A DNA stretch of 64,000 nt from an uncultured virus (IMG/VR IMGVR_UViG_2724679451_000017). Taxonomy: Duplodnaviria > Heunggongvirae > Uroviricota > Caudoviricetes. Position 1 is the stretch's first letter, and the number at the start of each line of letters is the position of its first letter. The position numbers were made by a program, and so were the translations under genes. The stretch lies in IMG/VR virus record IMGVR_UViG_2724679451_000017; one strand, 5' to 3'. Under the pieces are notes generated by a model. It searched no databases. It saw only the letters and a list, made by a program, of their open reading frames with translations, and was not told the origin of the DNA. This document shows, piece after piece, positions 9,686-28,900 of the stretch.

Positions 9686-10298
9686 CTCTTTCCACTAAAA
9701 TACCGTGGTTATCAACGCTTAACCGTAAATGTGTAAATAACTCATTGTTTAAATTATTAAAGTCTTGATAGCACAAATCAAAATCACTAGCTGGCATTTT
9801 CTTAATGAAATCTAGCCGCTGCTTAAATTGTTCTTCAAATAATTGAGGGTTTGTTCTATCCGGCAATAAAGCCAAGTGTTCATGATTAGAATAACTCAAC
9901 TGAAATGCCATCATACAGGCAATCCATTCAGCGACATTCTTACAATTTGCCTCTAAGAATTCCGCTTCCATTCCAATAAGCTGTCTAACCGTAATTCCAT
10001 TTTGCGTAGTTTCAGTTTTCCAATTATTTTCTGATTGAAGGAAAACTTTAGACCAGTCAGTGTTCACCTCCAACATAGTATTACTTTGTTTCTCAAGATA
10101 CTTAAGTAGCAATAAATACCGCTCTTGAATTGTTAAAAGTAAAGGATCCACATTATCTAAAACTGACTTCACGAAAGCTGAAAGTCTTTTTTCATTTAAA
10201 TTCGGGGCAATGATTGAAATTTTAAGACATTGCTCAAAACTCAATTCATGCATTTGAAAAGTACTTTCGCCTATTGGCACCGGATCAAATGTAATCAT
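9603..10298 (-). CDS. Hypothetical morphogenesis protein (possible tail/baseplate assembly chaperone)
   Basis: Start at the TAATG overlap with the upstream stop; part of a late operon. Confidence 0.65.
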   Translation of the reverse strand: MITFDPVPIGESTFQMHELSFEQCLKISIIAPNLNEKRLSAFVKSVLDNVDPLLLTIQERYLLLLKYLEKQSNTMLEVNTDWSKVFLQSENNWKTETTQNGITVRQLIGMEAEFLEANCKNVAEWIACMMAFQLSYSNHEHLALLPDRTNPQLFEEQFKQRLDFIKKMPASDFDLCYQDFNNLNNELFTHLRLSVDNHGILVERGADDAPARFRTASIFTGIIKELDRSFA

Positions 10299-11110
10299 TA
10301 TTTGACTCCATACAATGAATAAATATCTTTTGAATCCCATGCAGTTCGACTCAACAAACTAATATTGACGGCCAAACTTAACCGGTTCCCCTTTTCATCA
10401 ATGGGCGCGACAATTGGCGCGGAAACGCTTTCAATAATGAAAGGCTTATAAGTTTTGCCGTGAGTAGTAAGAGATACAAACGGTGGAATGACACCTGAAA
10501 ACAAGCCTTCTAAAGTAGTATTTGAATCATTGACAACATTCTGCAGTGTAGACTCAGAAGATAATGAAACTGGCACACTCCAAGCCTCCAATTGCATGAT
10601 CTTGTCTTCAACTTCTGTTCTCGCATCACTAAAAGCCAAGAAAAAAATTGATAAATTAAGGCGTACTGATGATGTAGATAGGAATACTTGAGTTGTATTT
10701 ACTTTGGTTAAATTTGTTCGCCCTTCCACACTCTTAAGCGCATTTTCAGCTGTTGCTAAAGGTCCTGATGCCATATCGCTTAATGCTGAAATAAATGGTG
10801 AATTTTCGCCTAGAGTAGCTGCAGCTTGAAGCATTTGCCCAGTTTGCAAGTTAGCCATTAACATAGGCATTTTTAGTTCTGGATTGCTATTTTCAAATGG
10901 AGTTTGCCATTGGCTCTCAATACTTTTGTCGCCGTCAGTCAACAAAGCACGAATTACTGGTGATGCTACTGGGTTTCCATCTTTATCACAAAGAGAAAAT
11001 TCAGCATATTTATGCTTTGAAATTGAGCCATAAAAAGGATCTGATTCAGTACTGGGTAACTTAGTTTTTGCTGTATTAACAGCTGGTGCGTATGCTAAAG
11101 CTTTGGACAT
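10298..11110 (-). CDS. Putative tail/baseplate tube-like protein
   Basis: Late-promoter driven; beta-rich C-terminus 'PFIIESVSAPI..LAVNISL'. Function tentative. Confidence 0.5.
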   Translation of the reverse strand: MSKALAYAPAVNTAKTKLPSTESDPFYGSISKHKYAEFSLCDKDGNPVASPVIRALLTDGDKSIESQWQTPFENSNPELKMPMLMANLQTGQMLQAAATLGENSPFISALSDMASGPLATAENALKSVEGRTNLTKVNTTQVFLSTSSVRLNLSIFFLAFSDARTEVEDKIMQLEAWSVPVSLSSESTLQNVVNDSNTTLEGLFSGVIPPFVSLTTHGKTYKPFIIESVSAPIVAPIDEKGNRLSLAVNISLLSRTAWDSKDIYSLYGVK

Positions 11111-11730: not shown

Positions 11731-14700
11731 TCAAGCAGCTAGATTAATATTGTTCTCTTGCTCAAATTCATCAATCTTCTTAATGATTTCAGCAGACTTG
11801 TTATATGGCATAACAATCTCATCAAACTCATTTACTTCTGAACCCCAGAATTTAAGCATGATATTCTTGATCTGAGGTTTATCAACGCCATCGCCATTGA
11901 AAACGTACTTGCTACGTTCAGTTCTAACATAAAGTTCATACTTAGCAAGCTGCTCGTCAATGCGTAGTTTTCTAGGAGGCATTGCGATATCCCGAATTTC
12001 TGAAAATAGATCCTCTACACTTGTAAGGTGCGTGAAGTCTAATTCTCGTGTTTTTGGAACATCATTAGAGCCTGCATGTTTTTCAATAATGATGATACGA
12101 GTTGAAACGGCGGTACCAGCATTTTTAAAGGTTGATTGAGGTAACCAGATTTCAGCTGTCAGAATTGCACCAGGTGTGCTTTCAATAAATTCGTCTACTT
12201 TAGAATCCATCGAACCACGTGGTACCAAGGCCACAATCCGACCACCATCATAAAGATGCCCAAAAGCCTTCTTGATATGTTGAATTGCCAAAGTGCCAGC
12301 ATGACCAAATGGCGGATTCATCACAATCGCATGGTACTTATTCAATGATTCTAAAGATTCGAATGTATCAACAATTACTTTTGCACCTGTATTTGCCATT
12401 TGAGCACGACTAGCTAAAGACTCAGTGGGTTCAATCATTGTCAGCTCTACATCTTGCGGAACAAAACGACCAATAGCTCCATCACCAGCACTAGGCTCAA
12501 GCACAGAATCGCCAGTGTGTACCCCTGCCCATTCAATCATTTTGAATCCTAGAGGTTCAGGCGTTGCATACCATTCCTTACCTTCGCGGTTATCACGACT
12601 TTCAGAACGTTTGCCTTTGGCATAGTAGAATGTTAGTGCTTGATCAAATGGGGTTAACTTAGCAATACGGGCATTTTCTTCATCATATGCTTTACCACCA
12701 ATACCATCATTTAGACTTGGCTCTTCATATTTAGCTTCTTCATAAGCCTGAATTAACGCTTCTTTGATACTTACTACAGCATCAGCACCTTTTGCAAAGT
12801 TATCTACTGTTTCTGCGCGTCCAGCAATCGTGTCTGCAAATGCAGCCCGTTCCCATGCAGTACCAGTAGTCAAGTATCTCTGAATAGCATTTGATGCTTG
12901 TCCGGTTCGATAGATACGCCCTTCCGTCTGTCTCAACTTTGCGGGCTTTGTTGGTTGACCAATATTAATGAGTACTCGCTGGTGTTTACCAGTTGTATCA
13001 TGCAAGCTAATCCCAGTAGAACCAGCATCTGACTGCAGAATGAGAATATCGTGCCCGCTATCATCAGTATTAAATAACGCTACATTAGTTTCACGTTGTT
13101 GCTTTGAAAGACGGCCATTAAATAAAAGAGCATTAGGAAATGCATTCTTTAAAGTTTCAACAGGTGAATCATAATCAAGATTGAGATTTACTAGATCCGG
13201 TCTATTTTCTTTGAATGCATTATATTCAAGCTCAATATCTTCTCTAAGTGGGCTTTCATATTTTTCGATATCAAGCTTACTAATCAAGAAAGGTGCAAAA
13301 CCACCGCCCTCGTTATAGTCATGAAAAATTACTACTTTACGACCTAATGCTAAGTGCTTTTTCACCATATCAACACAAGCTTCAGCTTTAATAGCTTCTA
13401 ACAAACGGCGTCTTGCTAAGTAATCAAAGCGTTTTGCAATAATTTCGTATATGTTTTTAAATCGGTTGCCAGTAAATAGCCGATCATATTCTTGCATAGA
13501 TGCATGACGTCCCCAGCCTGTTGTTGGTTTACCAGTCTGAGCAGCCCATTCTTCAAAAGTTCGTGTTTTGTGCCCTTCTATTTCTTTATAACCATTGCGA
13601 AGATAAGTTAAACCTTCATCAATAAGTTCACCAACACGAGAGCCAATTAGAATGAATTTACGATCATAGTCAAAATTTACTTCTAAATCCCGCCCAGACA
13701 TAGCACCAGTGTTTTTAAGATTTTCGGCGAACTGTCTTTCAAGTACACCTGTATCCACCTTAGCTTCTGGTCGCGTCAACTTACCATATCGCTTTCGATA
13801 TCCAAGATTTCCCATATAGAAGTGCTCTCGAGCCTTACTAAAGCCTTCAGCTAAATTACCTTGGTCATCAACAGATACTGAAGGAGACATATAATCAAAT
13901 AAATAGCCTTCCGCCCAATCAAGTGAAAAGTGATAACTAAATGGCGTAGCAGATAAGAAAACAACTTTGACCTTACTTTTCTGGTGTTTCCAATTCAAAT
14001 TCCAGATCTTTCGTTGTTCATTTCGAAGGATCTGCATTTTGTTATAAGCACTTAGGTATTGTTCTGTTTCTTTACCATCTTCATCGAGCTCTTCAATTGG
14101 CATCTGATCAGCAAATTTATCTTCAAACCATTCACTAAAACCATGCAAATGCCCGGTTAATGCTCTTAGTTTGTTTAATGCTGCAGTTGCTTTACCATCG
14201 GATGATTGCGATAGAGTATGTGCCTCATCAATTAATATCAGGTCCCAATGTTTGTGAACTAAAGTTTTATTTTGTCCAAAATTAGCAAAGGTTGTGACCA
14301 CGACTGTGTGTTCATCACCGCCGTTATCTTTAATACTTTTTAATTTGTAAGCTTTGATATTCAACGGACTTGAGCTTTTTACAAAGTCATTTGCAATCTT
14401 ATCATTCAAGGTAACAATCAAAATATTCTTGAGACCAGCATTAATAAAACGCTTTGCCACTCCAAGCCCAGTAAAGGTTTTACCTGTACCAGTGCCGTTA
14501 GTAAAAAGAATACCCTTCTTATTTTCCTCAATTAACCGCTTTTCAGTTTTTAAAACATCACCACGTTGTGCTGGTTGCAGATATGGCAAAGCTGCGTCAA
14601 TATTTGAAGCATCGCTCCAAATTGTTTCTACATTATCTGCTTTTAATTGAGCTTCTAGCTTTTCATCTATGGCAGCTCTAACTGATTTAGCAGATTGTAC

Positions 14701-15561
14701 AATTGATCGATCTCTTGCTCGTTTAAGAGATGATCTCTTACCAGATAGTTCACCGCCTCCGCTGCTGTTAATCCGGTTAGTACTGGCTCTACTATTTCCA
14801 TCTGAAGATTCATTTCTTGGATTTCGGACGCTAGATAAACTTGCATCATTACTTTTTGATAAGCCAGAATTACTGTCTCGGAGTACCCCAATTTCTCCAT
14901 CATTTCTGATTGCTTCTGAAGCCTCAAATTCATCATTTCCTGATCCAGTTGTAGAAACAATTGGTCCTCTGGATCTGAGACGAAATTCGCCAACTGATTC
15001 CACATCTGAATTGGTATTTGATACATATGAGAATATCCCTTTTACTAGTTGCTGATCTTCAGAAAGAAGAGAGTCTGGAATAGCTTTAAGATGTTTTGAA
15101 CGTACTAAAATTTCACCCTGATAATAAAAGGCATAAGGGTCAAATTCTTTAGCTTTGGTTAATTTGATGCCTTTAAGCCCAATGACCTGTAGCGTTTTAT
15201 TCTTTTTAGTGGTGTAAGCCTTTAGCTCTTTATCGCAAGCAAAAAGAGAAACAATTGTCTCTAATTGTTCAATAACATTTCTGGAACTGTTATTAAGGTG
15301 TTGGATAACTGATTCATCAATGTTTTTGATAGCCTCGTTATATAAGACTTCAATAACTTCATCCAATTTTGGAAAGTCACTTTCTTGACGGGCAAAAGCT
15401 AAAGCTTGCTTTGCTATAGACAAGTTAAGTTCTATTTGCTTATGGATGATAAGAAGGAAAAATCGAGCAATATTGCTTTGATAATGCATGAAATCAATCA
15501 TGTAATAAATCGCAACCAATACTGTGTCTTTAGTGATTGGTTTGAGCTTTAAGATGGACAT
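11731..15561 (-). CDS. DarB-like SF2 helicase / N6-adenine methyltransferase fusion
   Basis: Walker A 'GTGTGKT', 'DEAH', 'SAT', 'AGSTGISLH..QTEGRIYR'; MTase 'LEPSAGDG' and 'NPPF'; next to DarA/DdrB-like genes. Confidence 0.85.
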   Translation of the reverse strand: MSILKLKPITKDTVLVAIYYMIDFMHYQSNIARFFLLIIHKQIELNLSIAKQALAFARQESDFPKLDEVIEVLYNEAIKNIDESVIQHLNNSSRNVIEQLETIVSLFACDKELKAYTTKKNKTLQVIGLKGIKLTKAKEFDPYAFYYQGEILVRSKHLKAIPDSLLSEDQQLVKGIFSYVSNTNSDVESVGEFRLRSRGPIVSTTGSGNDEFEASEAIRNDGEIGVLRDSNSGLSKSNDASLSSVRNPRNESSDGNSRASTNRINSSGGGELSGKRSSLKRARDRSIVQSAKSVRAAIDEKLEAQLKADNVETIWSDASNIDAALPYLQPAQRGDVLKTEKRLIEENKKGILFTNGTGTGKTFTGLGVAKRFINAGLKNILIVTLNDKIANDFVKSSSPLNIKAYKLKSIKDNGGDEHTVVVTTFANFGQNKTLVHKHWDLILIDEAHTLSQSSDGKATAALNKLRALTGHLHGFSEWFEDKFADQMPIEELDEDGKETEQYLSAYNKMQILRNEQRKIWNLNWKHQKSKVKVVFLSATPFSYHFSLDWAEGYLFDYMSPSVSVDDQGNLAEGFSKAREHFYMGNLGYRKRYGKLTRPEAKVDTGVLERQFAENLKNTGAMSGRDLEVNFDYDRKFILIGSRVGELIDEGLTYLRNGYKEIEGHKTRTFEEWAAQTGKPTTGWGRHASMQEYDRLFTGNRFKNIYEIIAKRFDYLARRRLLEAIKAEACVDMVKKHLALGRKVVIFHDYNEGGGFAPFLISKLDIEKYESPLREDIELEYNAFKENRPDLVNLNLDYDSPVETLKNAFPNALLFNGRLSKQQRETNVALFNTDDSGHDILILQSDAGSTGISLHDTTGKHQRVLINIGQPTKPAKLRQTEGRIYRTGQASNAIQRYLTTGTAWERAAFADTIAGRAETVDNFAKGADAVVSIKEALIQAYEEAKYEEPSLNDGIGGKAYDEENARIAKLTPFDQALTFYYAKGKRSESRDNREGKEWYATPEPLGFKMIEWAGVHTGDSVLEPSAGDGAIGRFVPQDVELTMIEPTESLASRAQMANTGAKVIVDTFESLESLNKYHAIVMNPPFGHAGTLAIQHIKKAFGHLYDGGRIVALVPRGSMDSKVDEFIESTPGAILTAEIWLPQSTFKNAGTAVSTRIIIIEKHAGSNDVPKTRELDFTHLTSVEDLFSEIRDIAMPPRKLRIDEQLAKYELYVRTERSKYVFNGDGVDKPQIKNIMLKFWGSEVNEFDEIVMPYNKSAEIIKKIDEFEQENNINLAA
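14667..15026 (-). CDS. Candidate nested (overprinted) gene in the +1 frame of the DarB-like linker
   Basis: 119 stop-free codons, AAGGGA 9 nt before ATG, acidic helical-looking product; host frame is S/R/N/G low-complexity here. Confidence 0.5.
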   Translation of the reverse strand: MYQIPIQMWNQLANFVSDPEDQLFLQLDQEMMNLRLQKQSEMMEKLGYSETVILAYQKVMMQVYLASEIQEMNLQMEIVEPVLTGLTAAEAVNYLVRDHLLNEQEIDQLYNLLNQLELP

Positions 15562-15592
15562 ATATCCCTCAACATAGGAACTTTACATTCCT

Positions 15593-15633
15593 ATGTTGAA
15601 TGATCGTAAGTATCTAATTTTTAGTAGGTTCCA
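15593..15633 (-). promoter_or_regulatory. Putative late promoter with overlapping 12-bp hairpin (15569-15599)
   Basis: TGGAAC-N29-CAACAT, 67 nt before ATG 15561. Confidence 0.75.
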
Positions 15634-15636
15634 GAT

Positions 15637-17148
15637 CTAAACATCTAATTCTTCGAAAAGAATGTCATTAATTTTGTTCCCTTCTTGATTTTCCTTTTCA
15701 TTACTTTGATCAATTTTAGCTTTCAAAGCACTGTGGAAACGTTCAGCCCCCTCTTTCGTTAATCGAATTATTTTAGGGCTACTTGAACTGCTGGAATCAA
15801 CCAAGGAATCGTACATTTGCACACTAATGAAATCATCACCAAGCACTTGTTGTGCATATTGGATAGCATCTTTTACACTTACTGGTTCAGGTTCACCAAA
15901 CAAGCCTACATTACTACTATCTAAAGCCTGTTTCTCTGCAAATTCAGCTAATGCTTTAAATAACATACTCATTTTTTTTGAACTGCGGCTATTCTTGGCG
16001 AGAAATACGGCGAGCTCAGCAACACCTTCTCCTAGATCCTCAAAAAGTCCTTGCTGCTTTACAAACTCAACAATATCTTGATCATTTTGCTTTGCAGATA
16101 AAATGGTATTTGCTGCATCAATAATTGCATTAGCAACACGTTGATCAATGGATTGCTCCATTCCATCAACGATTTGATCTGATATATCTTGAACATTTCC
16201 ACGACTTATAGCTTGCGCTTCAATAAATTTAGGCGCAGCAACACCAAGCGCATTAAGCATATTTTGAAGATCTGGTTTTGTATGATCAGCCATCATTTCT
16301 AGCAGACGATCATCATTGTACGCTTTACTAAAAATTGCGGCTTTGATTCTGTTTATCAGTGCTTGTGTTGGTTTTTTATCTTTCGTTGTGTACTGGGCAG
16401 CTTCTGTATCACCTAATTTACTTAAAAAACCTTGAATAAACTTTTGATTACTTACTGCTAATAAATCGCCATCTTCACTCGGGTTAAAAAGAGCCAGTAA
16501 ATTCTCATCTAAACGTTTAGCATCAGCTTTAGCACGTTCAGTAGCTGTAAATGACAACTTATCATCTTGGTTAGCATCTATGGCAAATTGAGCTCTATCA
16601 ATCTCAGTTGTACGAATACGTATCAAGATTGGTTTAGCAAAAGCCTGAACCTGCTCAGAACTAAAGCCAAAGTAATCGGCTTCATCAATCAACCATTGTT
16701 TATACTCATCTGCGGTACCGCGCTCATAGGCAAGCTTGATAGCCATTGTTCGGCCATTTCCTGATTCAACAACTAAATCATCACCAGTTATCGGTGCTCC
16801 CGTGTCTGCCCGACCTGAGCGGCCTAGGCTTTCGGGGTCTAAATCATTAGCAGTTTTCTGTACCCATGCTTGTGAGGATTCACGACTACGATCTCGTGGC
16901 TGCAATTCTTGCGGATAATTAGGGTTTTCCGCACCAGTTGCTGTATGAGATGCAATTACTTGATCAATATCAACTAAAGCGAATACAGTAGAAATCTTTT
17001 GTCCTTTGGCTGTTTTCACATTATTAGTTCTACCCTTCAAAAGCCCAGTAAAGGGCTGTTTAGGTTTAAAGAAACTAATCATTTGATCAATTACAACTAA
17101 TGGATTTTTAGCAATATCTTGAGTAGAAATTAGATTTAAAGTTGTCAT
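15637..17148 (-). CDS. DdrB-like ParB-superfamily virion protein
   Basis: 'IASH..NPNYPQELQPRDR', 'GAPI', 'VVESGNGR'; coupled to the DarA-like gene. Confidence 0.75.
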   Translation of the reverse strand: MTTLNLISTQDIAKNPLVVIDQMISFFKPKQPFTGLLKGRTNNVKTAKGQKISTVFALVDIDQVIASHTATGAENPNYPQELQPRDRSRESSQAWVQKTANDLDPESLGRSGRADTGAPITGDDLVVESGNGRTMAIKLAYERGTADEYKQWLIDEADYFGFSSEQVQAFAKPILIRIRTTEIDRAQFAIDANQDDKLSFTATERAKADAKRLDENLLALFNPSEDGDLLAVSNQKFIQGFLSKLGDTEAAQYTTKDKKPTQALINRIKAAIFSKAYNDDRLLEMMADHTKPDLQNMLNALGVAAPKFIEAQAISRGNVQDISDQIVDGMEQSIDQRVANAIIDAANTILSAKQNDQDIVEFVKQQGLFEDLGEGVAELAVFLAKNSRSSKKMSMLFKALAEFAEKQALDSSNVGLFGEPEPVSVKDAIQYAQQVLGDDFISVQMYDSLVDSSSSSSPKIIRLTKEGAERFHSALKAKIDQSNEKENQEGNKINDILFEELDV

Positions 17149-19100
17149 TAGATATTCTCCGCTTCCATTTTTTGCACTTGATTCAAGAGTTCTGTCACCG
17201 CTGGAATAAGAAGTGGATCATTTAAGTCTTTTTCTGCTTCATCTCGAATTTGCTCTAATAACTCAAGATTAACTTTAACCTGCCCTTCAATTACTGAACG
17301 GTAAAGTTGATTACCTTCATCATTTGTCGTAATCGGCTGAAGATCTTCAACTTCTGTCGGAGCATTTAGTTCTTTAGATTCATCATTATCTGAATTTTGG
17401 GCTGGCTCTTTATTACTGAGGCGATCCGCTAAATGTTCATCTGCCCATGCTCTTGAATATTCATAAAATGCTGTTAAATATTCTGGTGAACCTTCGGCCC
17501 CATTCCAGTTTTTTAAGAATTCACCACGGCGATCTGAAACCCAAGCCATAAAGTCTATGTTGTTAGAATCTTCAGGATTTTCCAAAGTGTCTAACCATGC
17601 TTGCATCATTTTGTTTTCAGCTATACCAGCTGCACGTGCTGCTAAAACTTCTTCATCTCTTTTTTGTTTAGCTTCATTTTCGGCATCAATAAGTTTTTTT
17701 GCTTCTAATTCTGCTTGCTGTTGAGCCAAAGCCTGGTCATCTAGTTCAGAAATCCATTCACGTGCCCAAACTACCGCATCAGAGTCCCCCTCTAGAGCCT
17801 TATTGATACGTTCAAAGAATGCTTGGTAACGTAAACCATCTTCACCTGCCCATTCAGGATCAGCATTTAAACGCTTTAAATCGGCTTTTAAACGTGCGGC
17901 TTCTTCATCAGAAATACTAACTGGTAACTCATTATGGAGACTATTCTCTTTAATGATTCCTTCATTTTCCTCAGATTGCTTGGTTAACAATGTATTTTGC
18001 AACTGATCAAATTCGTTTAATAAATTGGAAATTTCTGCACTTAAAGAATTTAATTGACTTTGTTTTTGCTCGAGGCGTAGTTCAGCATCTGCTAAAGCCT
18101 TGGCCTTTTCTGCTTTTTTAGATTGTAAACGCTTAAAACGATTACTATTTTGGTTAATCAACTTCATAATTCGACCAGCGAGAACTGGAATTGAAATTCC
18201 TTCTCCCTGATTAGGCTGGATTGCAGCAGTAATATCCCGATTGTTCATTAAAATCTTCCATGAAATTAATGAATCTGCGGGACTGATTTTTTTTGATAAT
18301 CGATCTGGCTTATGAAAAAGGATTGTGAAGTTTTGGCCGTCATCAAAATCATAAGTAAGCGCAATTTGAAGGACTTTTTTATGCTTAAAGGGCTTACTTT
18401 CCGTAACGTTAACGATTTTGACGCCAGTTTTTGAAAACTGATCCATAGAGTGATGCAAAATTGCAGACAGCTGCTCTAAATGCTGGTAATCAACGATAAT
18501 AGAGTCATAATGCGCTTCTTCTACGCCTAGACTAGATAAAAGCGTAGGTAACCCATCAAATTTACTTAATAATTGGCTGTGATCATCATTTCGTTGCATA
18601 TCTAATAACAACTTAGAAGTATCACCCTCATGAGAAATTAAATTGATTCCATCCCATTCAGGTTTTTCAGCTGCGACAACATTTTGTAATTGTTCTAGTT
18701 GCCATCTTTGAATCGGTTTTGAACCCGTCAAATTAAATTGTTGTGAAGATAAATGGCGCTTAAGTCCAAATTGATTTGTTTCAATAACATCTGTAACACA
18801 AGCATCAAACATTCGGCCAAATTGTAGTATCGCTAAATCAGCTGCATGCTGGTCATCGATAGCGCCTAATACCGCAACAGAATCAAACGCATCTATCCCA
18901 CCCTTTTTACCTTTTAAATTTACAACACGCCAGAAATCATTTTCCGTGTAATCTTCAGTGACTAAAGCATTAATTTGACGGTAATCACCCTTAATAAACC
19001 CAATTGAACAAGCACCACTATTCACCATGGAGTCAAAACCATGTACTAATCGGCTTTGATGTGGTGCGTGTGTTTGAATGAAAATTGATTTAACACTCAC
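17148..19100 (-). CDS. DarA-like defence-against-restriction virion protein
   Basis: 'FDDGQNFTILFHKPD..WKILMNNRDITAAIQP' DarA-type block followed by coiled coil; GTG start with GAGG SD. Confidence 0.75.
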   Translation of the reverse strand: MSVKSIFIQTHAPHQSRLVHGFDSMVNSGACSIGFIKGDYRQINALVTEDYTENDFWRVVNLKGKKGGIDAFDSVAVLGAIDDQHAADLAILQFGRMFDACVTDVIETNQFGLKRHLSSQQFNLTGSKPIQRWQLEQLQNVVAAEKPEWDGINLISHEGDTSKLLLDMQRNDDHSQLLSKFDGLPTLLSSLGVEEAHYDSIIVDYQHLEQLSAILHHSMDQFSKTGVKIVNVTESKPFKHKKVLQIALTYDFDDGQNFTILFHKPDRLSKKISPADSLISWKILMNNRDITAAIQPNQGEGISIPVLAGRIMKLINQNSNRFKRLQSKKAEKAKALADAELRLEQKQSQLNSLSAEISNLLNEFDQLQNTLLTKQSEENEGIIKENSLHNELPVSISDEEAARLKADLKRLNADPEWAGEDGLRYQAFFERINKALEGDSDAVVWAREWISELDDQALAQQQAELEAKKLIDAENEAKQKRDEEVLAARAAGIAENKMMQAWLDTLENPEDSNNIDFMAWVSDRRGEFLKNWNGAEGSPEYLTAFYEYSRAWADEHLADRLSNKEPAQNSDNDESKELNAPTEVEDLQPITTNDEGNQLYRSVIEGQVKVNLELLEQIRDEAEKDLNDPLLIPAVTELLNQVQKMEAENI

Positions 19101-19173: not shown

Positions 19174-19827
19174 TTATTTTAAGTTGGGAAACATTTTGAC
19201 GAAATTTAAAGTAACAATGGCATGTGCTTTATTAGAGGCATCAAGGGGCAAATTGCCTGCTTGAAGTGAAACTAGATGCTCAATTTCAAATTGGTTCTGA
19301 TTTCTTGCAGCTTTATCAAAAGCATATATTTTTAATCTCATTAAGTATTCAATTGGTGGCGACTGAGTACCATCTTTATTAAACATTATTTCTTTTATAG
19401 CTTTAGCACTATTCGCAATAGCTGCTTCTTTAGTCTCAATAAATGAAATGCTCAACTCATTTGAAGCATTACCAGTTACATGGTTGAGTTGAAAATGCCC
19501 CACATGCACTGCATCGGTTTGGGCATCTAGTAGTGATACATCTACATTATTGGCTAACCAAGCAACTTTGTTTGAAGGATCAAAAATTGGAATATTTGCT
19601 TGAGCAATTTTACTGTTTGCACGGTACGGGCGAATTTCAATTCCAAAATGGGCCGCTGAAAGTGTCCCTAATGCGTAAAGTTCCTGATAATGTGAAACAG
19701 CTCGATCAACAGTTAGACCAGACCACAAGACAGGATTCTTAGCAAAACGTTCTTTAAACGGATTTAAAACGTTTCCCAAACTGTTATTTATAGTTTTATT
19801 CTGTGTTTCGTATTCAAAAAAAGCCAT
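19174..19827 (-). CDS. Putative tail tube-like/baseplate protein
   Basis: Coupled to the portal gene; 'ELSISFIET' beta pattern. Function tentative. Confidence 0.5.
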   Translation of the reverse strand: MAFFEYETQNKTINNSLGNVLNPFKERFAKNPVLWSGLTVDRAVSHYQELYALGTLSAAHFGIEIRPYRANSKIAQANIPIFDPSNKVAWLANNVDVSLLDAQTDAVHVGHFQLNHVTGNASNELSISFIETKEAAIANSAKAIKEIMFNKDGTQSPPIEYLMRLKIYAFDKAARNQNQFEIEHLVSLQAGNLPLDASNKAHAIVTLNFVKMFPNLK

Positions 19828-21362
19828 TATTCTTCATCCTCTGGAAATTTACGGCTCTTAGCAATACTTTCAGCTAATGTTAATGCTTCCTCATATTTCA
19901 TACCTGTATCGCGCTCAAGAATGTACGCCATAATATCTACATCTAAATTTGATTCTTTCAATGATGCGATTACTTGTGTTTTAAGTAATGTTGTATTCAT
20001 TCTTGATTGAGCATTGTTGATTTCTTCCGTAGCTGCTGCAGTTTGGTTTGAATAATATTCAACTTGCCAAGGGTAATCTTCAGGCTCAAATTGTTCGTTA
20101 TAAGCAAAACCCCAATCCAAGTGAAGAATTTGATTAATCCCTTCGGAAGCTGCTGTTCGAATGTCTTGTGACCTACGCATGATTTGTGCAGAAGTATGGA
20201 ATGCTCCACCTTCTCCAATACCACCAGTTAACATGTCAGCCCACCCTACCATACTTGGGTCTAGACCTATACCGCCCATTAACAAACGGACATTAATCAT
20301 GAACTGTTCAATATTAATAGGTGAGCTTCGTTGATTCTTGATATCACCCACTGGATTTAGAACTTGTTTTTCATCAAATACTGGAAGCATGTGAAAAGCA
20401 GTATTCCAGACTGCTTCACCACCTGATAAAGCATCACGGACATAAGCCTCATGATTTTTAAGTAAACCTTCCAAACCACGGATATAGGCTTGACGTTGTG
20501 CTGGCGGCATTCCTGACATATTTACTGTCAAGAACATCTGATTTACGGTATCTGCAATTTGCTGGCTATTCATAGATGCCAAAGCGAGGATTACATCATC
20601 ATAAATATCTTCAATTTCATAAAGAAATGAGCCGCCTAAATGCGCTGGTAAGATTGGTAGCTCATCTGGATCATCACCCTCCAACATTTTCGTGACAAGA
20701 CCAGTTTCAACAAGCTCATATTGAGCAATATTGCTCATACGGGGCATTTTGAAACGTACCATTTGAATAGTATTCAGTTTGGTAATAGTTTTTTGCCAAT
20801 TACGAGGATCTAAACAAAAAAAGGCGACAGTCTTACTGCCTTGTTCGAAAGGTTGTATTAATGGTGGATAAGTATACTCATTACATACGAGGTCAATTAC
20901 ACCTTTATCTTTTTTCCCGTAAATACGTGCATAAGAATCACCAAATGAAATTGCATCTCGGGCTAGCTTGCTTAAATACTTATTGATCAGCTTTTCCATC
21001 TTTACACGGCGCTCATCTAGTTGTTTTTTTAGTTTTTCAGCTGCTGGTCCATTCGCCTTTTTTAACCGTTCTGCGGGCGTAATAAAGACTTGTTGGCCGC
21101 TATAAGAATCTCCGCCTAAGGCTGCAGAAACATGAATCCCCATACCCTCTGCGATAGGTGCAAAGCGTAACATTCTCTCCCATTTAGTAAGAATTTCTTT
21201 TCGAGTACGCTTCTTATTGGCTTTGGTTTGGTTAGTCCCAAGTGAAAACGGAGCCATAGTTTCATATAGCTGCGCTGTTGCATCCTGATTAGACGTATCA
21301 AATTGCTGATCATATGAATTAACATTTTCACCGAGTAACAACGATAAGAACCGAGAAGACAT
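19827..21362 (-). CDS. Putative portal protein (P1 Prt-like)
   Basis: 511 aa; 'LARDAISFGDSYARI', 'GGIGLDPSMVGWAD..GGIGEGG'. Confidence 0.65.
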   Translation of the reverse strand: MSSRFLSLLLGENVNSYDQQFDTSNQDATAQLYETMAPFSLGTNQTKANKKRTRKEILTKWERMLRFAPIAEGMGIHVSAALGGDSYSGQQVFITPAERLKKANGPAAEKLKKQLDERRVKMEKLINKYLSKLARDAISFGDSYARIYGKKDKGVIDLVCNEYTYPPLIQPFEQGSKTVAFFCLDPRNWQKTITKLNTIQMVRFKMPRMSNIAQYELVETGLVTKMLEGDDPDELPILPAHLGGSFLYEIEDIYDDVILALASMNSQQIADTVNQMFLTVNMSGMPPAQRQAYIRGLEGLLKNHEAYVRDALSGGEAVWNTAFHMLPVFDEKQVLNPVGDIKNQRSSPINIEQFMINVRLLMGGIGLDPSMVGWADMLTGGIGEGGAFHTSAQIMRRSQDIRTAASEGINQILHLDWGFAYNEQFEPEDYPWQVEYYSNQTAAATEEINNAQSRMNTTLLKTQVIASLKESNLDVDIMAYILERDTGMKYEEALTLAESIAKSRKFPEDEE

Positions 21363-22911: not shown

Positions 22912-25900
22912 TTATAAACCAATATAAATTCTCTCAATATTGTTATCGTCATATAACTTTAAAGCGGTCCCTGAAATGACCATTCTTGCTTTTTGAGGCT
23001 GACTAGGATCTTTATAAGTAATTAAAGTCCCAAGTTCACCAGTTATGGCACTTAACTTGTCAACATTGAATAATTCAGCTGTAAGAGACTTGGCCTTAAA
23101 GTTTGCGGCTGTCAAATTCTTAATAAATACATCACTGTTCATCACAACTTGATTGTCTTGGATTATGAACGGCATATATTTAGTAGAAGAAGTACCGGTT
23201 GTGAAGAAAATCTTATCCGCTTGGAAACCTATAGAACTGAGCACAGTTCCATTCGTTTGCTCACTGACCATAGACATTCCAGAGAACACACCATTATTGT
23301 CCATTCCCATTACATACTTACCTTTCACACCATCGATCAAATCAGCTTGTGATTTAAGCTTGATAGCATTTTGGCCGTAAACAGAAACCAAAGTTTGTAA
23401 AGCACCAGCATATGCCCCCACATCAGTTGTATATGTGGTTTTGAAATTTTCGAAATCAGCTATGTTGTCAGCATCTTCAATATCGATAAAGTCTAGATCC
23501 ACTTCACCAGCTTTACCTGAATAGTTACCAATGAATACTGGTGTAAAGAAAGCAGCTTTATTTGCGAATGTTTTAGGACTTAGTAGAGTGCCTGCACCTG
23601 CACTTGCACCAGCAGACCGTCCCTTAAAATAAGCAGTACCAGTTATCCAAGTTCCCAACGCTGGTGCGGTACCTGCAACTAAATAATGACTTGAACTGAT
23701 ATCATTGATTTCAGAGTTATCTTGAGCAATATATTTTGTTTTATTGGCGTTTTGACAGGTCGCACCAACATAAACAACTCCGGTACCACTTACACGGCGG
23801 AATCTATACTTAACTCGGTAATATTTATTGTCATCGATAGGCAAAGATGTGAACCAATTTAACCAGGCTTCATCATTTCCTACGTTATTACCAATTCTTA
23901 GTGCATATCCCCCACGACATGTTGAATCTGCAACTAAACTAAGTTCAGGCTTATTCCCACTTGGAGTTTTTACTAACCAATCTTTTTGCCATGTTTCGAG
24001 TACTGAAGCCATGATCTTTTGACCATTTGCAGAATACAGTGCAGACATTCTTTCAGTTGAAGATGCGATTGCTTCATTCGTCTTGGTAGACGTCATGTAA
24101 TCACGCTCTAAAGTTGCTTTTGTCGTGGATGCTAAATCCTTTGCAGAATCAGCTATTTCTTTTGCCTTTTCAGATATTGCACGTACTAATGCTTGTCGTG
24201 CGTTGTGCACATTAGCAAAGTTGGTGATGAACTGGTTTCGGTCAATCGTACTAGTTACATTCATATTTGCGAATAAACTAGCCAAATATGTATTTAAAGT
24301 ACTGAATGCCGTGGCATAAGCAGCTGAAGAGATTCCATAAGTGACCGCTTCAGCTCTTAAGCTTGTATCAGTTTGATAAAGTGTATCCCACACCAACTTT
24401 GCCTGTTTTTTCTCAACTGGTGTGAGTTTATTATCAGCAGCAATATCACTTAACTGAGCCATTGGAACATCCACTTTGGCTTGTGAACCTGCAGTGGTTT
24501 CCATCATTGAAGTCACTGTAAATGGCGTAACAGACTTATAAACTGATAAATCCGTTTCAATGGCCGCCGACCAACCATCTTTAAAGTAATCTGGCGGATT
24601 TGTATGAGTAATTGTTGCTGATTCGACAGTAATAGCTGGGTAAGACCAAGCATCTTTTTTGGTAATTAAGATACACACCTTATTATTGCTATCTAAAGCT
24701 AGAGCCAAGCCTTTAGTCGTAGCATTATTTTCATCTAAGGTAATACCAAAAGAACGTGACGTCATATTTGGGTAAAATGGCAATGTTGAGGTATATGCAT
24801 AGAACGCCAAATCCAGATCGAAGATATTATCTTCTTTGTTATTGTAGTTATAACCTGAAATTTTAACCTTGGTCATGTACGCGCCAACTGTAACTGGTGT
24901 CTTAATAACCAAAGTACCCGAAGTCGTGATTGGTTGACGCCAAGTTAAAGGCTTAACGAAAATTTTACCCGCACCTGAACTCAATGGCTGCACACTCATA
25001 GCATTGGTATATTCAGAAGTAATTTTCTGTGATGATGCTGCAATTGCACGCTCAACATTAGTATTTGTTATATCTGCATTCAGAATATAAGCGCCGTTCT
25101 TACTGTCTAATTTTGAAGACATCTCTGTAAGTTTGGCCGCCCAAGTTTCTTTGAAGTTGGTTAATGTTGAAATAGAGTCTGTTGCTGTAGAAACAAAATC
25201 TTGTAAAGTCGGGTCAGCTGAAGCGTAATCAGTTACATCATATTGCTCAATTTGAGCTAAGGTCCAAACTAACGGTGCAGTAGCTGTTGGTGTAGCCCCA
25301 CCCGCTACATAAACATGTCCTGCGTTTGAGAAAGTACCTACCGCACCGCATTTAATCATTCGAATATATGTTTCGAATTTGCCTGTACCTTCAGTACTGC
25401 CAATGAATCGATCAATTGCACCTGTCCCCATTGAGTTACCAGCATTAACTAACTTATATCCAATTGGTAGTTTGATTAAATATTTAATGACAAAAACAGC
25501 ATTTGCACGGCCATTAACAAGCTGGTAAAAGCCACCACACGAGGGATTAGCAGCACCAATTGTTTTAATTTCTAACTCATGTGTTGAAGTGGTTGGGTTG
25601 TCAGAACTTTTCGCGACACGTGTAACTGTCACGTTCCCATTGCCAGCATTGTTATAGACAAATACAGCATTGTTACCCTTCTTAAAATTTACGTCTCCCT
25701 GCAACAGTTTTCCATTAGTAATCATCATCGCCAGCATAGTTGTGTTTTCTAATGCCGAGCCAAGATTATTTGTACTTGTTTGAAGCTGCGAAATTTCAGT
25801 ATTCCTAAGTGTAGCTAGATCTTTTGAAGTTTGGTCAGCTGTAGCTTTTGTTGTTTTCACTACAGAGGATAAGCCACCAGGTACAGTTGCATCATATTGT

Positions 25901-28900
25901 TGAATTTGCTGAGTTATAACTCCCTTGTTTACATCAGCCTTGATAAAAGTATCTTCAACAAATTGAGCATTTTGTTTAAGAGAGGATCTAAAACCTCCTT
26001 TAAAATTAGGTGCTGAATTACCACGGCTAATAAACATATTAGTGATAGTAATAGTTCCACCCGAAGGAGCATTATCAAAACGTAAACCTAATGGAATAGC
26101 TTCATAAGCAGAGGCTTTTAAATCTGATGGGAAAATACCTGTTAGTTCTATTTCACCACTTGCAGCTACAGTAAAAGCTGGTAATCCCACCCCATATGTA
26201 GCACCATGAAATTGAATAAGACATGTAGCTCCGACTAAACCAGCTGTCGCCGTATATTTGATTCTTGCAACAATCGGATCACCTTTATCAATTGGAATTT
26301 CCTTGTGTTTATATTGCAACTCCCAAACAGCAACAGTACGGTTTGTACCAGTAGCGATACTTAAATTTTTAGTTTCATCGCCAAGTAAAATCCAGTTTTC
26401 TTCTGAGTAACGTAAAATATCAAGTTGTGCTTTAAAGACTTTGATTTCCTCAGCAAATACTTCTTTCGCATCAGATCTAGTAATTTTTTCTTGAAGAATT
26501 TGTGCGTGGTTTTCCAATACTTTTTGTAAGTTTCCGCTGTTGTTTGCTAGACCAATAGGAATACCACTAACAACTTGCACAGCAAGCATGATTTGTTTAG
26601 CACCATTCGGCCCTGAATCTGGTGTTGCATGCAATTCAATACCGCGGCCAGAGCCAATTCCCTTCTGACCAACTAAAATATATGCATCCCGCCCCGTTAT
26701 TTGATCAAGTGTGAATGGATTGGCACCTAATGAAATTAGTGCATTCTTAACTGGTGCTAGGTTTACACCAATACTGTCGTAGTTTGTAACGATAACAAAG
26801 GTGTCATTTGGAATCGCAGCAATAGCGTTACTCATTGCCGTAGAATTTGCTACAGCTGCATAAGTATCATATCTAGTTGAAGAAGCTATAGAACCATCAG
26901 CTGCTAAAACATGGACTGAAAAACCACGTGCTGAAGCTACTGATTTGATTTCACCTTTTAAGTTTTTAATCCCTGTGAAAAAGCCATTCCAGCCACATGA
27001 ATAAACACGATAATTGAAAACTTGACCAAGGTCCTGATTTAATTGTTTATAACTTGATTCCAAGTTATTAATAGACTGTGTAGTGTTCTGTTGATTATCA
27101 CTAATAGTTGAATTAATTTCCTGAAACTTACCATCTACAGCAGTTTTATTATTGTCTACAGTAGATTTTAAAGTCGCATAATTCTCTGCAAGTGAAGTAA
27201 TCTTTTCACCGTTTTTTTGAACATCTGCTTTAGTACCTTCAATTGCAGAAGCATTAGCTTCGAGGGCCTTAACAAGCTCACGTGGGTTTTTTCTAAATCC
27301 AGTTGCTAACTCCCCCTTTTCGATTTGTACTTCTCTAATTGCAAAATCAGGGGCAAATCCAGTCAATGCATACAGGATAATATTAATATTCTTTAAATTG
27401 GCTACATTGGTATTGAAGGTAAAAATACATAACGTTTCTTTATCAGTATTGATTTGCCATGAACTGCCAAGTTGATTGTTACTTGTTCCATCAAATCTAT
27501 GAATAATTAATAGCAAACTTGTTTGAGCTGGAGTGAGAGATTTTGCCTTAAAAGATAAGGTATATGTTTGATTAATCTCCAACCCATCTTCTGACGTGAG
27601 TTGTTCAAAAAAGCCTTTGAATGCAGTTGTTGTATTTGTTGAGCTAAAACGTCCCCAATTTGCTCCATTCTGGTCTTTATACACCTCCATGATGCTACCA
27701 GCTACGTTTGAGTTTATACGCCAGTTAGACAAAGCAAAAGGCTGTGTAAAATCTCCGTTTTTAATTATGTTGTCACCACCACTTGAAGAAATTGCAGCTT
27801 TGATAATTTTGCTCTCTTCAGCAATAGCTTGGTTAGTTTCTGTTTTGGTGTAGCGAGTACTATCTAGTGTTGCTGAACTATTAGTCCACAAATCGCCAAA
27901 TTTTTGACGAAATTTAGCTTCAAGGGTTTCAGTTGCAGAAGTTATTGCTTGAGCAGTATCTGCTTTAGAAGAGTAATCCTTAATTAGAGTTGAAGTACTT
28001 ACCTTATCATTTAACGCTTTATTATTACCTTCATAAACTTCTACCCAATGCACTGTAGTAGTGGCATTAGCATTTGCTGAAGAATTTGGAAAACAATAAA
28101 AATTAACAACAGTTGCGTCTGTTCTAGAAATTGTAGTTAAGGTAAATTCGTAGATATCTTTACTAGCTGAAAAAATAGGTGCATCTGCATTAAATACATT
28201 ACCTCCGCCAATATATACACGCAAATTGGCTGCATTGTTCCCTCCATTATCAAAGGTAACTTTTGCTCTGACGGTAACAGTAATACCAGGTGCATTTAAA
28301 CTTTTTGCTAAAGGATATGATACTTGTAAATAACCACCCGTTTTACTTTTTTCGACATTACCCCCGATAACGATGTTGTCAAAAGCCTTACCACCGATAC
28401 TTGTTTTCAATGCTTCGGTCGCAGTTGATATTGCGCTATCAACATCAGATTTAGTCATCCGGTCGGAAATTTGTTTAGCCTGTGCAGCCAAACCATTTAC
28501 AGGATCATTAATTGTTGATTCTAAGTTTTGAGTTTTTTTAGCTAAAGCAGTACTTTCAGTAACATACGTTTGTTTAAATTCATTTAAATATGCTGATACT
28601 TGATCGAATGCTGCATTGAAGTCGTAAGGACTTGCAATCCAATTATCTGTAGTTATGAATTCCCCTTTAACTAACACAGCCCAATACACAGTACCAACAC
28701 TTTGCTTGTCTGCAGTTGGTCTGCTAAGCATATAAAAGTTAACTTCTTTGGCGGTACCAGCTGAAGTCTTCGTAAAAGTAATTTTGCTTATTACCTTACC
28801 TGAAGTGTTAATAACCTGCTGTAAAAACTGACTTCCTCCACCAGCATATACAGCTAAATTTGAGTTAGTGTCACCAGCACCACGTGTATGCTCTGCACAC

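What the first reader, a model, noticed from the sequence alone, without database searches (positions are those of the whole stretch)
14667..15026. Hidden overprinted gene inside the DarB-like helicase-methyltransferase
Seen: a same-strand +1-frame ORF of 119 codons with AAGGGA 9 nt before ATG, resembling the host gene's own GAGGGA SD. It spans residues ~179-298, where the host frame is an S/R/N/G-rich low-complexity linker, and ends where the helicase region begins. Its product is acidic and amphipathic-helical. A stop-free run this long is unusual in AT-rich DNA. Inference: a co-encoded partner (chaperone, inhibitor or packaging adaptor) of the antirestriction enzyme. Caveat: M/Q/L/E enrichment also arises by frame-shifting D/S/A-rich codons.
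Basis: partly seen in the sequence, partly recalled or inferred. Interest (0 to 1): 0.75.

Follow-up and report, generated by a model that had tools for sequence, protein, structure and literature searches.

The report
Hidden gene inside phage antirestriction gene
A small, well-conserved protein-coding gene lies hidden in a shifted reading frame inside a large phage anti-restriction gene, in the same place in related phages of many bacteria, so genome annotation has been missing a real protein.

Summary
The ORF is there as described: 15026→14667, minus strand, 119 codons, +1 frame of the 1,276-codon helicase-methylase gene, AAGGGA 9 nt before ATG. Its length alone is unremarkable (≥119 codons in 5% of synonymous shuffles). 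Comparative evidence shows it is a real gene. Among 41 close relatives, variable sites inside the ORF fall on the +1 frame's third codon position (31/13/5 by host position 1/2/3, against 99/62/498 outside). The +1 frame has dN/dS 0.04-0.11, while the host frame there behaves like a non-coding frame. A homologous ORF of about 120-144 codons, with ATG and mostly a Shine-Dalgarno motif, sits in the +1 frame of a large or giant ORF just before the helicase domain in all 16 lineages whose DNA I could read. These include Acinetobacter and two other genera of its family, phages of Pseudomonas, Serratia, Klebsiella, Vibrio and Ruegeria, a Comamonas plasmid, and metagenomic viruses. None of the 7 annotated records lists it. 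The product folds confidently (pLDDT 89, seven helices). The host-frame reading of the same DNA does not (pLDDT 48). It matches no Pfam or PHROG family and no solved fold. The host frame is kept open by selection, so the stretch codes in two frames. Translation and function are untested. A partner role for the helicase-methylase is my leading inference.

The parts
14667..15026 (-). Nested gene: 119 codons plus TAG, in the +1 frame of the host gene. The product is P0001, a seven-helix protein.
   Evidence: In the +1 frame dN/dS is 0.04-0.11 and dNN/dSN is 0.18, p 2e-9. Homologues are found in all 16 lineages. The AF2 model has pLDDT 89.2 and pTM 0.81.
15036..15041 (-). Shine-Dalgarno-like AAGGGA, 9 nt before the nested gene's ATG.
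   Evidence: The AAGG core is kept in all 16 local haplotypes. An SD-like motif lies 5-17 nt upstream in 15 of 16 lineages, against a background of 0.16.
11731..15561 (-). Host gene, 1,276 codons. It has an N-terminal domain (residues 1-178), a linker (179-298), an SF2/SNF2-type helicase (about 299-960) and an N6-adenine methylase (about 985-1170).
   Evidence: Pfam ResIII, Helicase_C and MTS. phrog_10691 positions 1351-2630 of 3925. GTGTGKT, DEAH and NPPF are invariant in alignment A4.
14668..15027 (-). Host-frame reading of the overlap (residues 179-298). It is a disordered spacer that is kept open but is not conserved in sequence.
   Evidence: Host-frame dN/dS is 2.5-8.2 and dNN/dNS is 1.76, p 0.45. 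AF2 on the host-frame alignment gives pLDDT 47.8 and pTM 0.13. The frame stays open in 0 of 20,000 recodings that keep the +1 protein.
15565..15570 (-). The host gene's own Shine-Dalgarno, GAGGGA.
14669..15055 (+). Antisense ORF of 128 codons over the same stretch. It is a by-product, not a gene.
   Evidence: It is intact in only 23 of 31 gene haplotypes; 6 have an internal stop and 3 have lost the ATG. Its third codon position coincides with host position 3, where variation is lowest.

Best explanation
This is a real, separately translated protein-coding gene of 119 codons. It is nested in the +1 frame of the helicase-methylase (DarB-like) gene of an Acinetobacter prophage. It lies across the stretch that, in the big gene's frame, encodes only a disordered spacer between the N-terminal domain and the helicase.

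Shown:
- The amino-acid sequence of the +1 frame is under purifying selection as strong as that on the helicase itself. The big gene's amino-acid sequence over the same bases evolves freely.
- The big frame is nevertheless kept free of stops, so both frames are read.
- The arrangement (ATG, the +1 frame, the position just before the helicase domain, and in 15 of 16 lineages a Shine-Dalgarno motif) is conserved in every related locus whose DNA I could read, from AT-rich Acinetobacter to GC-rich phages of other proteobacteria.
- The product is predicted with high confidence to be a compact seven-helix protein of no known family or fold.

Inferred:
- Ribosomes start at the internal Shine-Dalgarno and ATG on the mRNA of the head-morphogenesis gene block, independently of the ribosomes reading the big frame.
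- The small protein most likely acts as a dedicated partner of the helicase-methylase module made from the same message. It could be an assembly or packaging helper, or a regulator that keeps the enzyme quiet in the producing cell. I give this role odds of about 0.4.

The confidence given below is for the gene being real and separately translated, not for the function.
For: (1) Close relatives, 41 sequences and 31 haplotypes. Variable sites inside the ORF by host codon position 1/2/3 are 31/13/5, against 99/62/498 outside (chi-square 97.9, p 6e-22). The switch happens at the ATG and at the stop.

(2) Nei-Gojobori, 8 pairs. In the overlap the +1 frame gives 0.04-0.11 and the host frame 2.5-8.2. 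The flanking host frame gives 0.04-0.12, and the +1 frame of the downstream gene, as a control, gives 2.1-3.0.

(3) Changes classified in both frames. ORF-synonymous/host-nonsynonymous changes were seen at 31 of 185 possible. ORF-nonsynonymous/host-synonymous changes were seen at 4 of 239. Changes nonsynonymous in both were seen at 15 of 510, and stop-creating changes at 0 of 117. ORF dNN/dSN is 0.18 (p 2e-9).

(4) An independent pair, Parlo and ZX1, gives 0.24 for the +1 frame, 1.54 for the host frame and 0.23 for the downstream host frame.

(5) Homologous ORFs of 119-144 codons lie in the +1 frame of a larger ORF in 16 of 16 lineages. This includes 7 of 7 annotated records, none of which annotates it.

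(6) BLASTP all-against-all over 14 lineages. The +1 products match at E<=1e-3 in 81 of 91 pairs. Host-frame translations of the same DNA match in 12 of 91. Matched identities to the window are higher in the +1 frame in 12 of 12 comparisons.

(7) ATG is present in 16 of 16 lineages. An SD-like motif is present in 15 of 16 by the loose definition and 13 of 16 by the strict one, against backgrounds of 0.16 and 0.09. The +1 frame has a stop only 2-5 codons before the ATG in the window, Parlo, ZX1, D274 and G004.

(8) AF2 gives pLDDT 89.2 and pTM 0.81 for the +1 product. It gives 47.8 and 0.13 for the host-frame reading of the same DNA.

(9) The host frame is kept open. None of 31 at-risk codons is preceded by T, against 22 of 87 other codons. 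The frame stays open in 0 of 20,000 recodings using the gene's codon usage.

(10) Co-occurrence. The 8 phage records that hold >=71% of the host protein are exactly the 8 that hold the small ORF.
Against: There is no direct evidence of translation. RNA-library contigs cover the stretch in the 2 contig runs laid (of 18 listed as holding it), but that does not exclude DNA carry-over. The two raw-read runs gave no reads.

The ORF's length is within chance.

Its codon usage looks like that of an off-frame. The CAI-like index is 0.51, against 0.42-0.52 for +1 frames of real genes and 0.62-0.76 for real frames. The host frame in the overlap scores 0.66.

The close pair D274 and 1.232.O is uninformative: 21 differences, 0.61 in the +1 frame against 0.91 in the host frame.

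For the function there is no test of binding, no fold or family match, and acidity is not conserved (pI 4.0 to 9.5).
Confidence: 0.85

Rival explanations
1. The gene is real, but its product is a separate anti-defence effector, for example an inhibitor of a host restriction or other immune protein. On this view it is nested in the big gene only for compactness and co-expression, and is not a partner of the helicase-methylase.
For: It sits in a gene annotated as antirestriction. It is small, helical and acidic in most members (pI 4.0-5.4 in 22 of 30 sequences listed), as several known phage inhibitors are (recalled). It has no known family.
Against: Selection is strongly purifying, with a ratio like that of the helicase, whereas arms-race effectors usually evolve fast (general knowledge). 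Co-occurrence with one helicase-methylase subfamily is strict, and the position is fixed. Charge is not conserved (D274 has pI 9.1 and P0016 pI 9.5). No solved fold matched, DNA mimics included (weak evidence).
Confidence: 0.3
2. There is no independent start. On this view ribosomes reading the big gene slip +1 near the beginning of the stretch, producing a truncated protein that ends in the 119-residue sequence, as in programmed frameshift products.
For: The frames are on the same strand. An A5 run lies inside the overlap, and some database proteins switch frame there.
Against: The +1 frame has a stop 2-5 codons before the ATG in five lineages, so the entry window would be a few codons wide. 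Conservation begins exactly at the ATG. ATG is present in 16 of 16 lineages and an SD-like motif in 15 of 16. The chimeric proteins switch in the middle of the ORF and are what 1-nt indels in assemblies would give.
Confidence: 0.05
3. The ORF is a chance open frame produced by the composition of a low-complexity linker that lacks L/I/V/M codons. It is not a gene.
For: Its length is within chance. +1 stops need codons ending in TA or TG, which are fewer here (L/I/V/M make up 17% of the region against 22% of the gene). An antisense ORF is open too. Codon usage looks off-frame.
Against: All the comparative evidence goes against it: codon-position switch, dN/dS, deep protein-level conservation across 36-65% GC, conserved ATG and SD, and a confident fold. 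The antisense ORF, which is the internal control, is not conserved.
Confidence: 0.02
4. The conservation reflects an RNA or DNA element, such as a structure or a binding site, and not a protein.
For: Two sub-stretches have no variation at all in either frame (gene nt 535-581 and most of 821-889).
Against: An RNA or DNA element would not put variation on every third base in phase with one frame. It would not conserve amino acids while the DNA diverges to the point where only protein searches find the relatives. It would not yield a confidently folding protein.
Confidence: 0.02

Closest known systems
Embedded Rz1-in-Rz spanin genes of lambda-like phages (recalled; the embedded class is mentioned in PMC9144972, passages seen)
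   Same: A small gene lies wholly inside a larger gene of a tailed phage, on the same strand and in the +1 frame, with its own start. Both frames are needed. In that case the two products work together.
   Different: Rz1 is a lipoprotein with a signal peptide and a lipobox cysteine. This product has no cysteine and no hydrophobic leader. The host here is a virion-type helicase-methylase, not a lysis protein. Here the big gene's frame over the overlap is only an unconserved spacer.
Overprinted genes of small viruses and phages (phiX174 B in A, E in D; MS2 L; paramyxovirus C in P), as reviewed in PMC8227390 (search listing and abstract only)
   Same: One DNA stretch codes in two frames. One frame is ordered and the other disordered. 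The asymmetric selection can be detected from codon-position patterns.
   Different: Those cases lie in very small genomes under size pressure. This one lies in prophages and phages of 53-63 kb or more. It has been kept across phages of three proteobacterial classes inside a gene of 1,276 to about 3,900 codons. Here the nested frame is the constrained, folded one.
Phage P1 Dar antirestriction system (DarB with its accessory proteins DarA, Hdf, DdrA, DdrB). The DarB description is from PMC5512222, passages seen; the accessory proteins' roles are recalled.
   Same: A large helicase-methylase is carried in the head, injected, and depends on small accessory proteins. This is the functional model for a partner role.
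   Different: In P1 the accessory proteins are separate genes. The nested protein matches no PHROG family. No homologue was found outside the 8 phage records. In this subfamily the helicase comes before the methylase, whereas PMC5512222 describes the methylase as fused at its C terminus to the helicase.
Polyvalent proteins of phages and plasmids (PMC5512222; LPD38 and PLxRFG labels in the annotation)
   Same: The host gene belongs to this class. It matches positions 1351-2630 of a 3,925-position PHROG profile, and its relatives are single genes of 3,162-3,912 codons.
   Different: That paper's text has no occurrence of 'overlapping' or 'frameshift'. A gene hidden in another frame of a polyvalent protein is not part of the published description, as far as my searches reach.

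Membership tests
Nested (out-of-frame, same-strand) protein-coding gene | Reading frame open in homologues far beyond chance | tested here: met
   It is open in 16 of 16 local haplotypes and in 16 of 16 lineages. The antisense ORF, as a control, is intact in only 23 of 31 haplotypes.
Nested (out-of-frame, same-strand) protein-coding gene | Purifying selection on its own amino-acid sequence, separable from the host frame | tested here: met
   dN/dS is 0.04-0.11 in the +1 frame against 2.5-8.2 in the host frame. dNN/dSN is 0.18, p 2e-9. Parlo against ZX1 gives 0.24 against 1.54.
Nested (out-of-frame, same-strand) protein-coding gene | Conserved start codon and ribosome-binding site | tested here: met
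   ATG is present in 16 of 16 lineages and an SD-like motif in 15 of 16, against a background of 0.16.
Nested (out-of-frame, same-strand) protein-coding gene | Host frame also functional across the overlap | tested here: met
   There are no host-frame stops in 14 of 14 lineages. The frame stays open in 0 of 20,000 recodings that keep the +1 protein.
Nested (out-of-frame, same-strand) protein-coding gene | Product detected (translation shown) | not testable with these tools
   Only RNA-library contigs cover the stretch. No ribosome profiling or proteomics data were at hand.
DarB-like helicase-methylase / polyvalent protein (the host gene) | SF2/SNF2 helicase motifs and N6-adenine methylase motif in one polypeptide | tested here: met
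   Pfam ResIII, Helicase_C, SNF2-type and MTS. GTGTGKT, DEAH and NPPF are invariant in 11 sequences. The naming of the motifs is from general knowledge.
DarB-like helicase-methylase / polyvalent protein (the host gene) | Methylase N-terminal to helicase, as described for the DarB dyad in PMC5512222 | tested here: not met
   Here the helicase (341-887) comes before the methylase (1026-1111). The gene is therefore a relative with the reverse domain order, not a P1 DarB orthologue.
DarB-like helicase-methylase / polyvalent protein (the host gene) | Carried in the virion and injected | not tested
   Context only: it lies between a PmgG-like head-morphogenesis gene and the portal gene.
Rz1-type embedded spanin | Lipoprotein signal peptide with lipobox cysteine | tested here: not met
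   The window's product and 26 of the other 29 family sequences listed have no cysteine. The N-terminus MYQIPIQMWNQ is not hydrophobic.
DNA-mimic antirestriction proteins (Ocr/ArdA type) | Strongly acidic surface conserved in the family; fold like a known mimic | tested here: inconclusive
   The window's product has pI 4.05, but the family ranges up to pI 9.5. No solved chain scored E<=1e-3 or Z>=5. A missing fold match does not exclude the family.
Any curated protein family | Match to Pfam-A or PHROGs at curated or significant level | tested here: not met
   None of 17 family members reaches a Pfam cut-off. PHROGs gave three marginal hits at E 0.006-0.009 to three different families. All 79 profile hits are unnamed or 'hypothetical', with no precomputed Pfam domain.

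The most novel reading that the evidence does not exclude
The ~120-residue protein is an obligatory partner of the injected helicase-methylase, encoded in cis: a chaperone, packaging adaptor or off-switch. The overlap is ancient and arose by fusion. An upstream polyvalent-protein gene and the helicase-methylase gene became one reading frame by reading straight through the small gene that lay between them, in another frame. The giant protein's interdomain 'linker' would then exist only as the shadow of the small gene. That would be a new route to multidomain giant proteins, and a new, unannotated component of a widespread phage antirestriction device.
Probability: 0.3. Interest if true: 0.85.

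Novelty: new variant of a known kind. Interest (0 to 1): 0.72.

Why it matters
Long same-strand overlaps that are demonstrably under selection are rare in tailed phages. The embedded spanin gene is the textbook example.

This is a second, unrelated case. It is 360 nt long and is kept across phages and prophages of Gamma-, Beta- and Alphaproteobacteria. Standard gene callers cannot see it: none of the 7 annotated records lists it, and the database holds it almost only from contig fragments.

It adds a previously unseen protein family, with no known fold, to the giant injected antirestriction proteins, whose assembly, packaging and control are poorly understood.

It also gives a clean natural example of two frames under opposite regimes, one constrained in sequence and the other constrained only to stay open. 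That makes it useful for testing methods that look for hidden genes.

It is directly testable, because the start codon can be removed without changing the big protein.

Tried and rejected
- **Binding test.** I tried it no other way, so binding is untested.
- **Fold searches** of the model found nothing usable. Foldseek against PDB gave no hit at E<=1e-3, and BFVD none. VIA-align wide gave a best Z of 4.8 (YpgQ) and none >=5. The ESM Atlas gave no usable hit.
- **Family libraries.** Pfam and PHROGs gave nothing significant.
- **Fused forms.** The A2 profile against longer proteins gave none (weak evidence by the tool's own note). P0014 (5,768 aa), listed by phmmer, does not match the family profile and is a Q/E-rich false hit. 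The host protein does not contain the domain in frame.
- **Stand-alone copies.** None was seen among loci whose DNA I could read. P0020 (362 aa, named 'hypothetical protein' at NCBI) could not be placed: viral and metagenome scans found nothing. Its context, and that of the Crenobacter, Thermodesulfobacteriota and Desulfamplus proteins, remains unseen.
- **Family-level genome search**. Six of the 12 matches were dropped. Five lie in a 157-163-codon ORF that reads like SmpB (label recalled). One (G084) has two stops inside.
- **Class-level search.** Only G001 matched among 400 genomes scored.
- **Alignment-based locus search** failed for lack of a conserved 7-10-column stretch.
- **Which frame is older.** Codon usage favours the host frame. 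The order/disorder rule of thumb favours the nested frame. I leave this open.
- **RNA evidence.** Contigs of 2 RNA runs cover the stretch at word depth of about 10 and 7. Two raw-read runs gave 0 reads, which is no test.
- **DNA-level search** of the phage collection found nothing.
- **Literature.** Searches for DarB with 'overlapping gene', for polyvalent protein/overprinting, for overlapping genes/bacteriophage/synonymous constraint, and for DarB-like, plus term searches inside PMC5512222 and PMC9144972, found no description of this gene.
- **Earlier findings of this scan:** none.

Full report
**The observation.** It lies on the minus strand from ATG at 15026 to TAG at 14669-14667 and has 119 codons. 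The surrounding gene (15561→11731, 1,276 codons) starts 535 nt upstream, so the ORF is in its +1 frame. AAGGGA lies 9 nt before the ATG, and the big gene has GAGGGA 3 nt before its own ATG. The big protein carries ResIII/SNF2-type helicase matches (residues 341-454 and 809-887) and a small-methylase match (1026-1111). The ORF covers its residues 179-298, a stretch rich in S/R/N/G/D/E. The product has pI 4.05.

**Length is not evidence.** I shuffled synonymous codons within the big gene 5,000 times. The longest +1 stop-free run averaged 85 ± 18 codons. It reached the ORF's 119 codons in 5.1% of shuffles, and the observed 124-codon run in 3.9%. +1 stops need a codon ending in TA or TG, which means L, I, V or M, and the linker has fewer of these (17% against 22%). 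An antisense ORF of 128 codons is open over the same bases. On this window alone the finding could be chance.

**Close relatives.**
- The gene recurs at 93-100% protein identity in 43 viral contigs and one Acinetobacter nosocomialis genome.
- Over gene nt 500-900, 43 sequences give 16 haplotypes with up to 31 differences. All 16 keep the ATG and the open frame. One (L044) has lost the stop and runs four codons further.
- In 41 full-length sequences (31 haplotypes, 709 variable sites), variation falls on host codon position 3 everywhere except inside the ORF. There it falls on host position 1, which is the third position of the +1 frame. The counts are 31/13/5 inside against 99/62/498 outside (chi-square 97.9, p 6e-22).
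- The switch happens at the ATG and reverts at the stop.
- Across the haplotypes the +1 protein is almost invariant, while the host-frame residues 200-275 change freely.

**Selection per frame.**
- Nei-Gojobori estimates for 8 pairs give, in the overlap, 0.04-0.11 for the +1 frame and 2.5-8.2 for the host frame.
- The host frame scores 0.08-0.12 upstream and 0.04-0.07 downstream. The +1 frame of the downstream gene, a non-coding control, scores 2.1-3.0. In the overlap, then, the host frame behaves like a non-coding frame. Its ratio above 1 is the expected side effect of constraint in the other frame, not positive selection.
- I also classified each variant in both frames at once:

| Effect in ORF / effect in host frame | Seen | Possible |
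|---|---|---|
| synonymous / nonsynonymous | 31 | 185 |
| nonsynonymous / synonymous | 4 | 239 |
| nonsynonymous / nonsynonymous | 15 | 510 |
| stop-creating in either frame | 0 | 117 |

- From these counts ORF dNN/dSN is 0.18 (p 2e-9) and host dNN/dNS is 1.76 (p 0.45).
- The antisense ORF is intact in only 23 of 31 haplotypes, so it is a by-product.

**Both frames are read.** I kept the +1 protein and redrew its codons from the gene's own usage. The host frame stayed open in 0 of 20,000 trials. Shuffling codons within the ORF kept it open in 259 of 20,000. None of the 31 codons that would make a host-frame stop after a T is preceded by T, against 22 of 87 other codons. The host frame has no stop across the overlap in any of 14 lineages. 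The big protein is therefore translated through this stretch, which only has to stay open.

**Distant relatives.**
- Protein searches found full-length homologues of 119 residues at 59-65% identity, and a family of about 120-130-residue proteins. A profile search raised this to 79 proteins. All are unnamed or 'hypothetical' and have no Pfam domain. Most come from short contigs, as expected for a gene that callers report only when the big gene is cut off.
- Six-frame searches placed the homologue in the +1 frame of a large ORF in three more Acinetobacter species and two other genera of the family.
- They also placed it inside the annotated giant gene (3,162-3,912 codons) of phages Skulduggery, Parlo, ZX1, D274, 1.232.O and 45A6, and of a Comamonas plasmid. 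In 7 of 7 records the match starts at +1 relative to the annotated start, and none annotates it.
- The same holds in 3 of 3 IMG/VR loci and 3 of 3 metagenome loci.
- In total that is 16 lineages out of 16, always just before the helicase domain. I saw no stand-alone copy.
- The 8 phage records that hold most of the host protein are the same 8 that hold the ORF.
- The +1 products match each other in 81 of 91 pairs. Host-frame translations of the same DNA match in 12 of 91. In 12 of 12 matched comparisons the +1 frame is the more conserved.
- Parlo against ZX1 repeats the selection pattern: 0.24 against 1.54. The close pair D274 and 1.232.O has too few differences to tell.

**Start signals.** All 16 lineages have ATG. 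An SD-like motif lies 5-17 nt upstream in 15 of 16, against a background of 0.16. A strict core is present in 13 of 16, against 0.09. G004 carries AGGAGGT five bases before its ATG. In five lineages the +1 frame has a stop only 2-5 codons before the ATG. This leaves almost no room for entry by frameshifting.

**The product.**
- With 16 sequences, AlphaFold2 gives pLDDT 89.2 and pTM 0.81, with seven helices.
- The host-frame translation of the same DNA, with 13 sequences, gives 47.8 and 0.13.
- No solved or predicted viral structure matches, and no Pfam or PHROG family does.
- Most members are acidic but some are basic, so a DNA-mimic role is not a family trait.

**Context.** The gene lies in the head-morphogenesis block of a prophage, with a PmgG-like head-morphogenesis gene at 10298-11110 and the portal gene at 19827-21362. 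It matches positions 1351-2630 of a 3,925-position PHROG profile. The two genes upstream match other parts of related giant proteins. So the polyvalent protein that is one gene in the phages appears to be split in three here. The split is not at the nested gene.

**What speaks against, and what is open.**
- Nothing here shows translation. RNA-library contigs cover the stretch in two runs, but that may be DNA carry-over. Two raw-read runs held no reads.
- The ORF's codon usage resembles that of off-frames (0.51), and the host frame's resembles real genes (0.66). The ordered/disordered contrast suggests the opposite. I leave the origin open.
- Function is inferred only. Strict co-occurrence, fixed position, and selection as strong as on the helicase favour a dedicated partner of the helicase-methylase (about 0.4) over a free-standing anti-defence effector (about 0.3).

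**Known or new.** The kind of thing is known: the embedded Rz1 gene (recalled; the embedded class is mentioned in PMC9144972) and the overprinted genes of small viruses (PMC8227390, abstract only). My four literature searches found no description of a gene nested in a DarB-like or polyvalent-protein gene, nor did term searches in PMC5512222 and PMC9144972. The library does not cover most subscription journals.

**Verdict.** This is a real, ancient, unannotated nested gene that encodes a new protein family. Its function is still to be found.

Noticed in passing
window 14853-14857 (A5 run, minus strand) and proteins P0004, P0008, P0009, P0010: Four database proteins start in the host frame (MESVGEF...) and switch to the nested gene's frame at this A5 run. 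P0010 switches back to the host frame 35 residues later. They look like 1-nt indels in assemblies, either sequencing errors or real breaks of the big gene. I could not tell which.
   Followed up: partly
window 15568-15600, minus strand: A perfect 14-bp hairpin lies in the 75-nt gap before the host gene. Its 3' arm covers the first three bases of that gene's Shine-Dalgarno. For the 86 nt folded, the energy is -23.9 kcal/mol with z -3.5. It may be a translational or processing control. Its conservation was not checked.
   Followed up: partly
window 11731-19100, minus strand: The giant polyvalent protein of related phages (one gene of 3,162-3,912 codons) appears here as three consecutive genes: 17148-19100, 15637-17148 and 11731-15561. 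They match different parts of the same PHROG profiles.
   Followed up: partly
window 11731-15561, minus strand: The domain order is helicase then methylase. This is the reverse of the methylase-then-helicase order described for the DarB dyad in PMC5512222.
   Followed up: no
window 14980-15026 and about 14672-14740, minus strand: The first 47 nt of the nested gene, and most of its last 70 nt, show no or almost no variation among 31 haplotypes in either frame. The host residues there (VSNTNSDVESVGEF, and GKRSSLKRARDRSI.QSAKSVRAA) may be constrained as well.
   Followed up: no
locus L044, gene nt 890-892: One haplotype has lost the nested gene's stop codon, and its ORF runs four codons further.
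   Followed up: yes
window 22912-33261, minus strand: A 3,449-codon gene matches tail, baseplate-spike and tail-fibre PHROG families along its whole length.
   Followed up: no
window 14669-15055, plus strand: An antisense ORF of 128 codons is open over the same stretch. It is not conserved: 23 of 31 haplotypes have it intact.
   Followed up: yes
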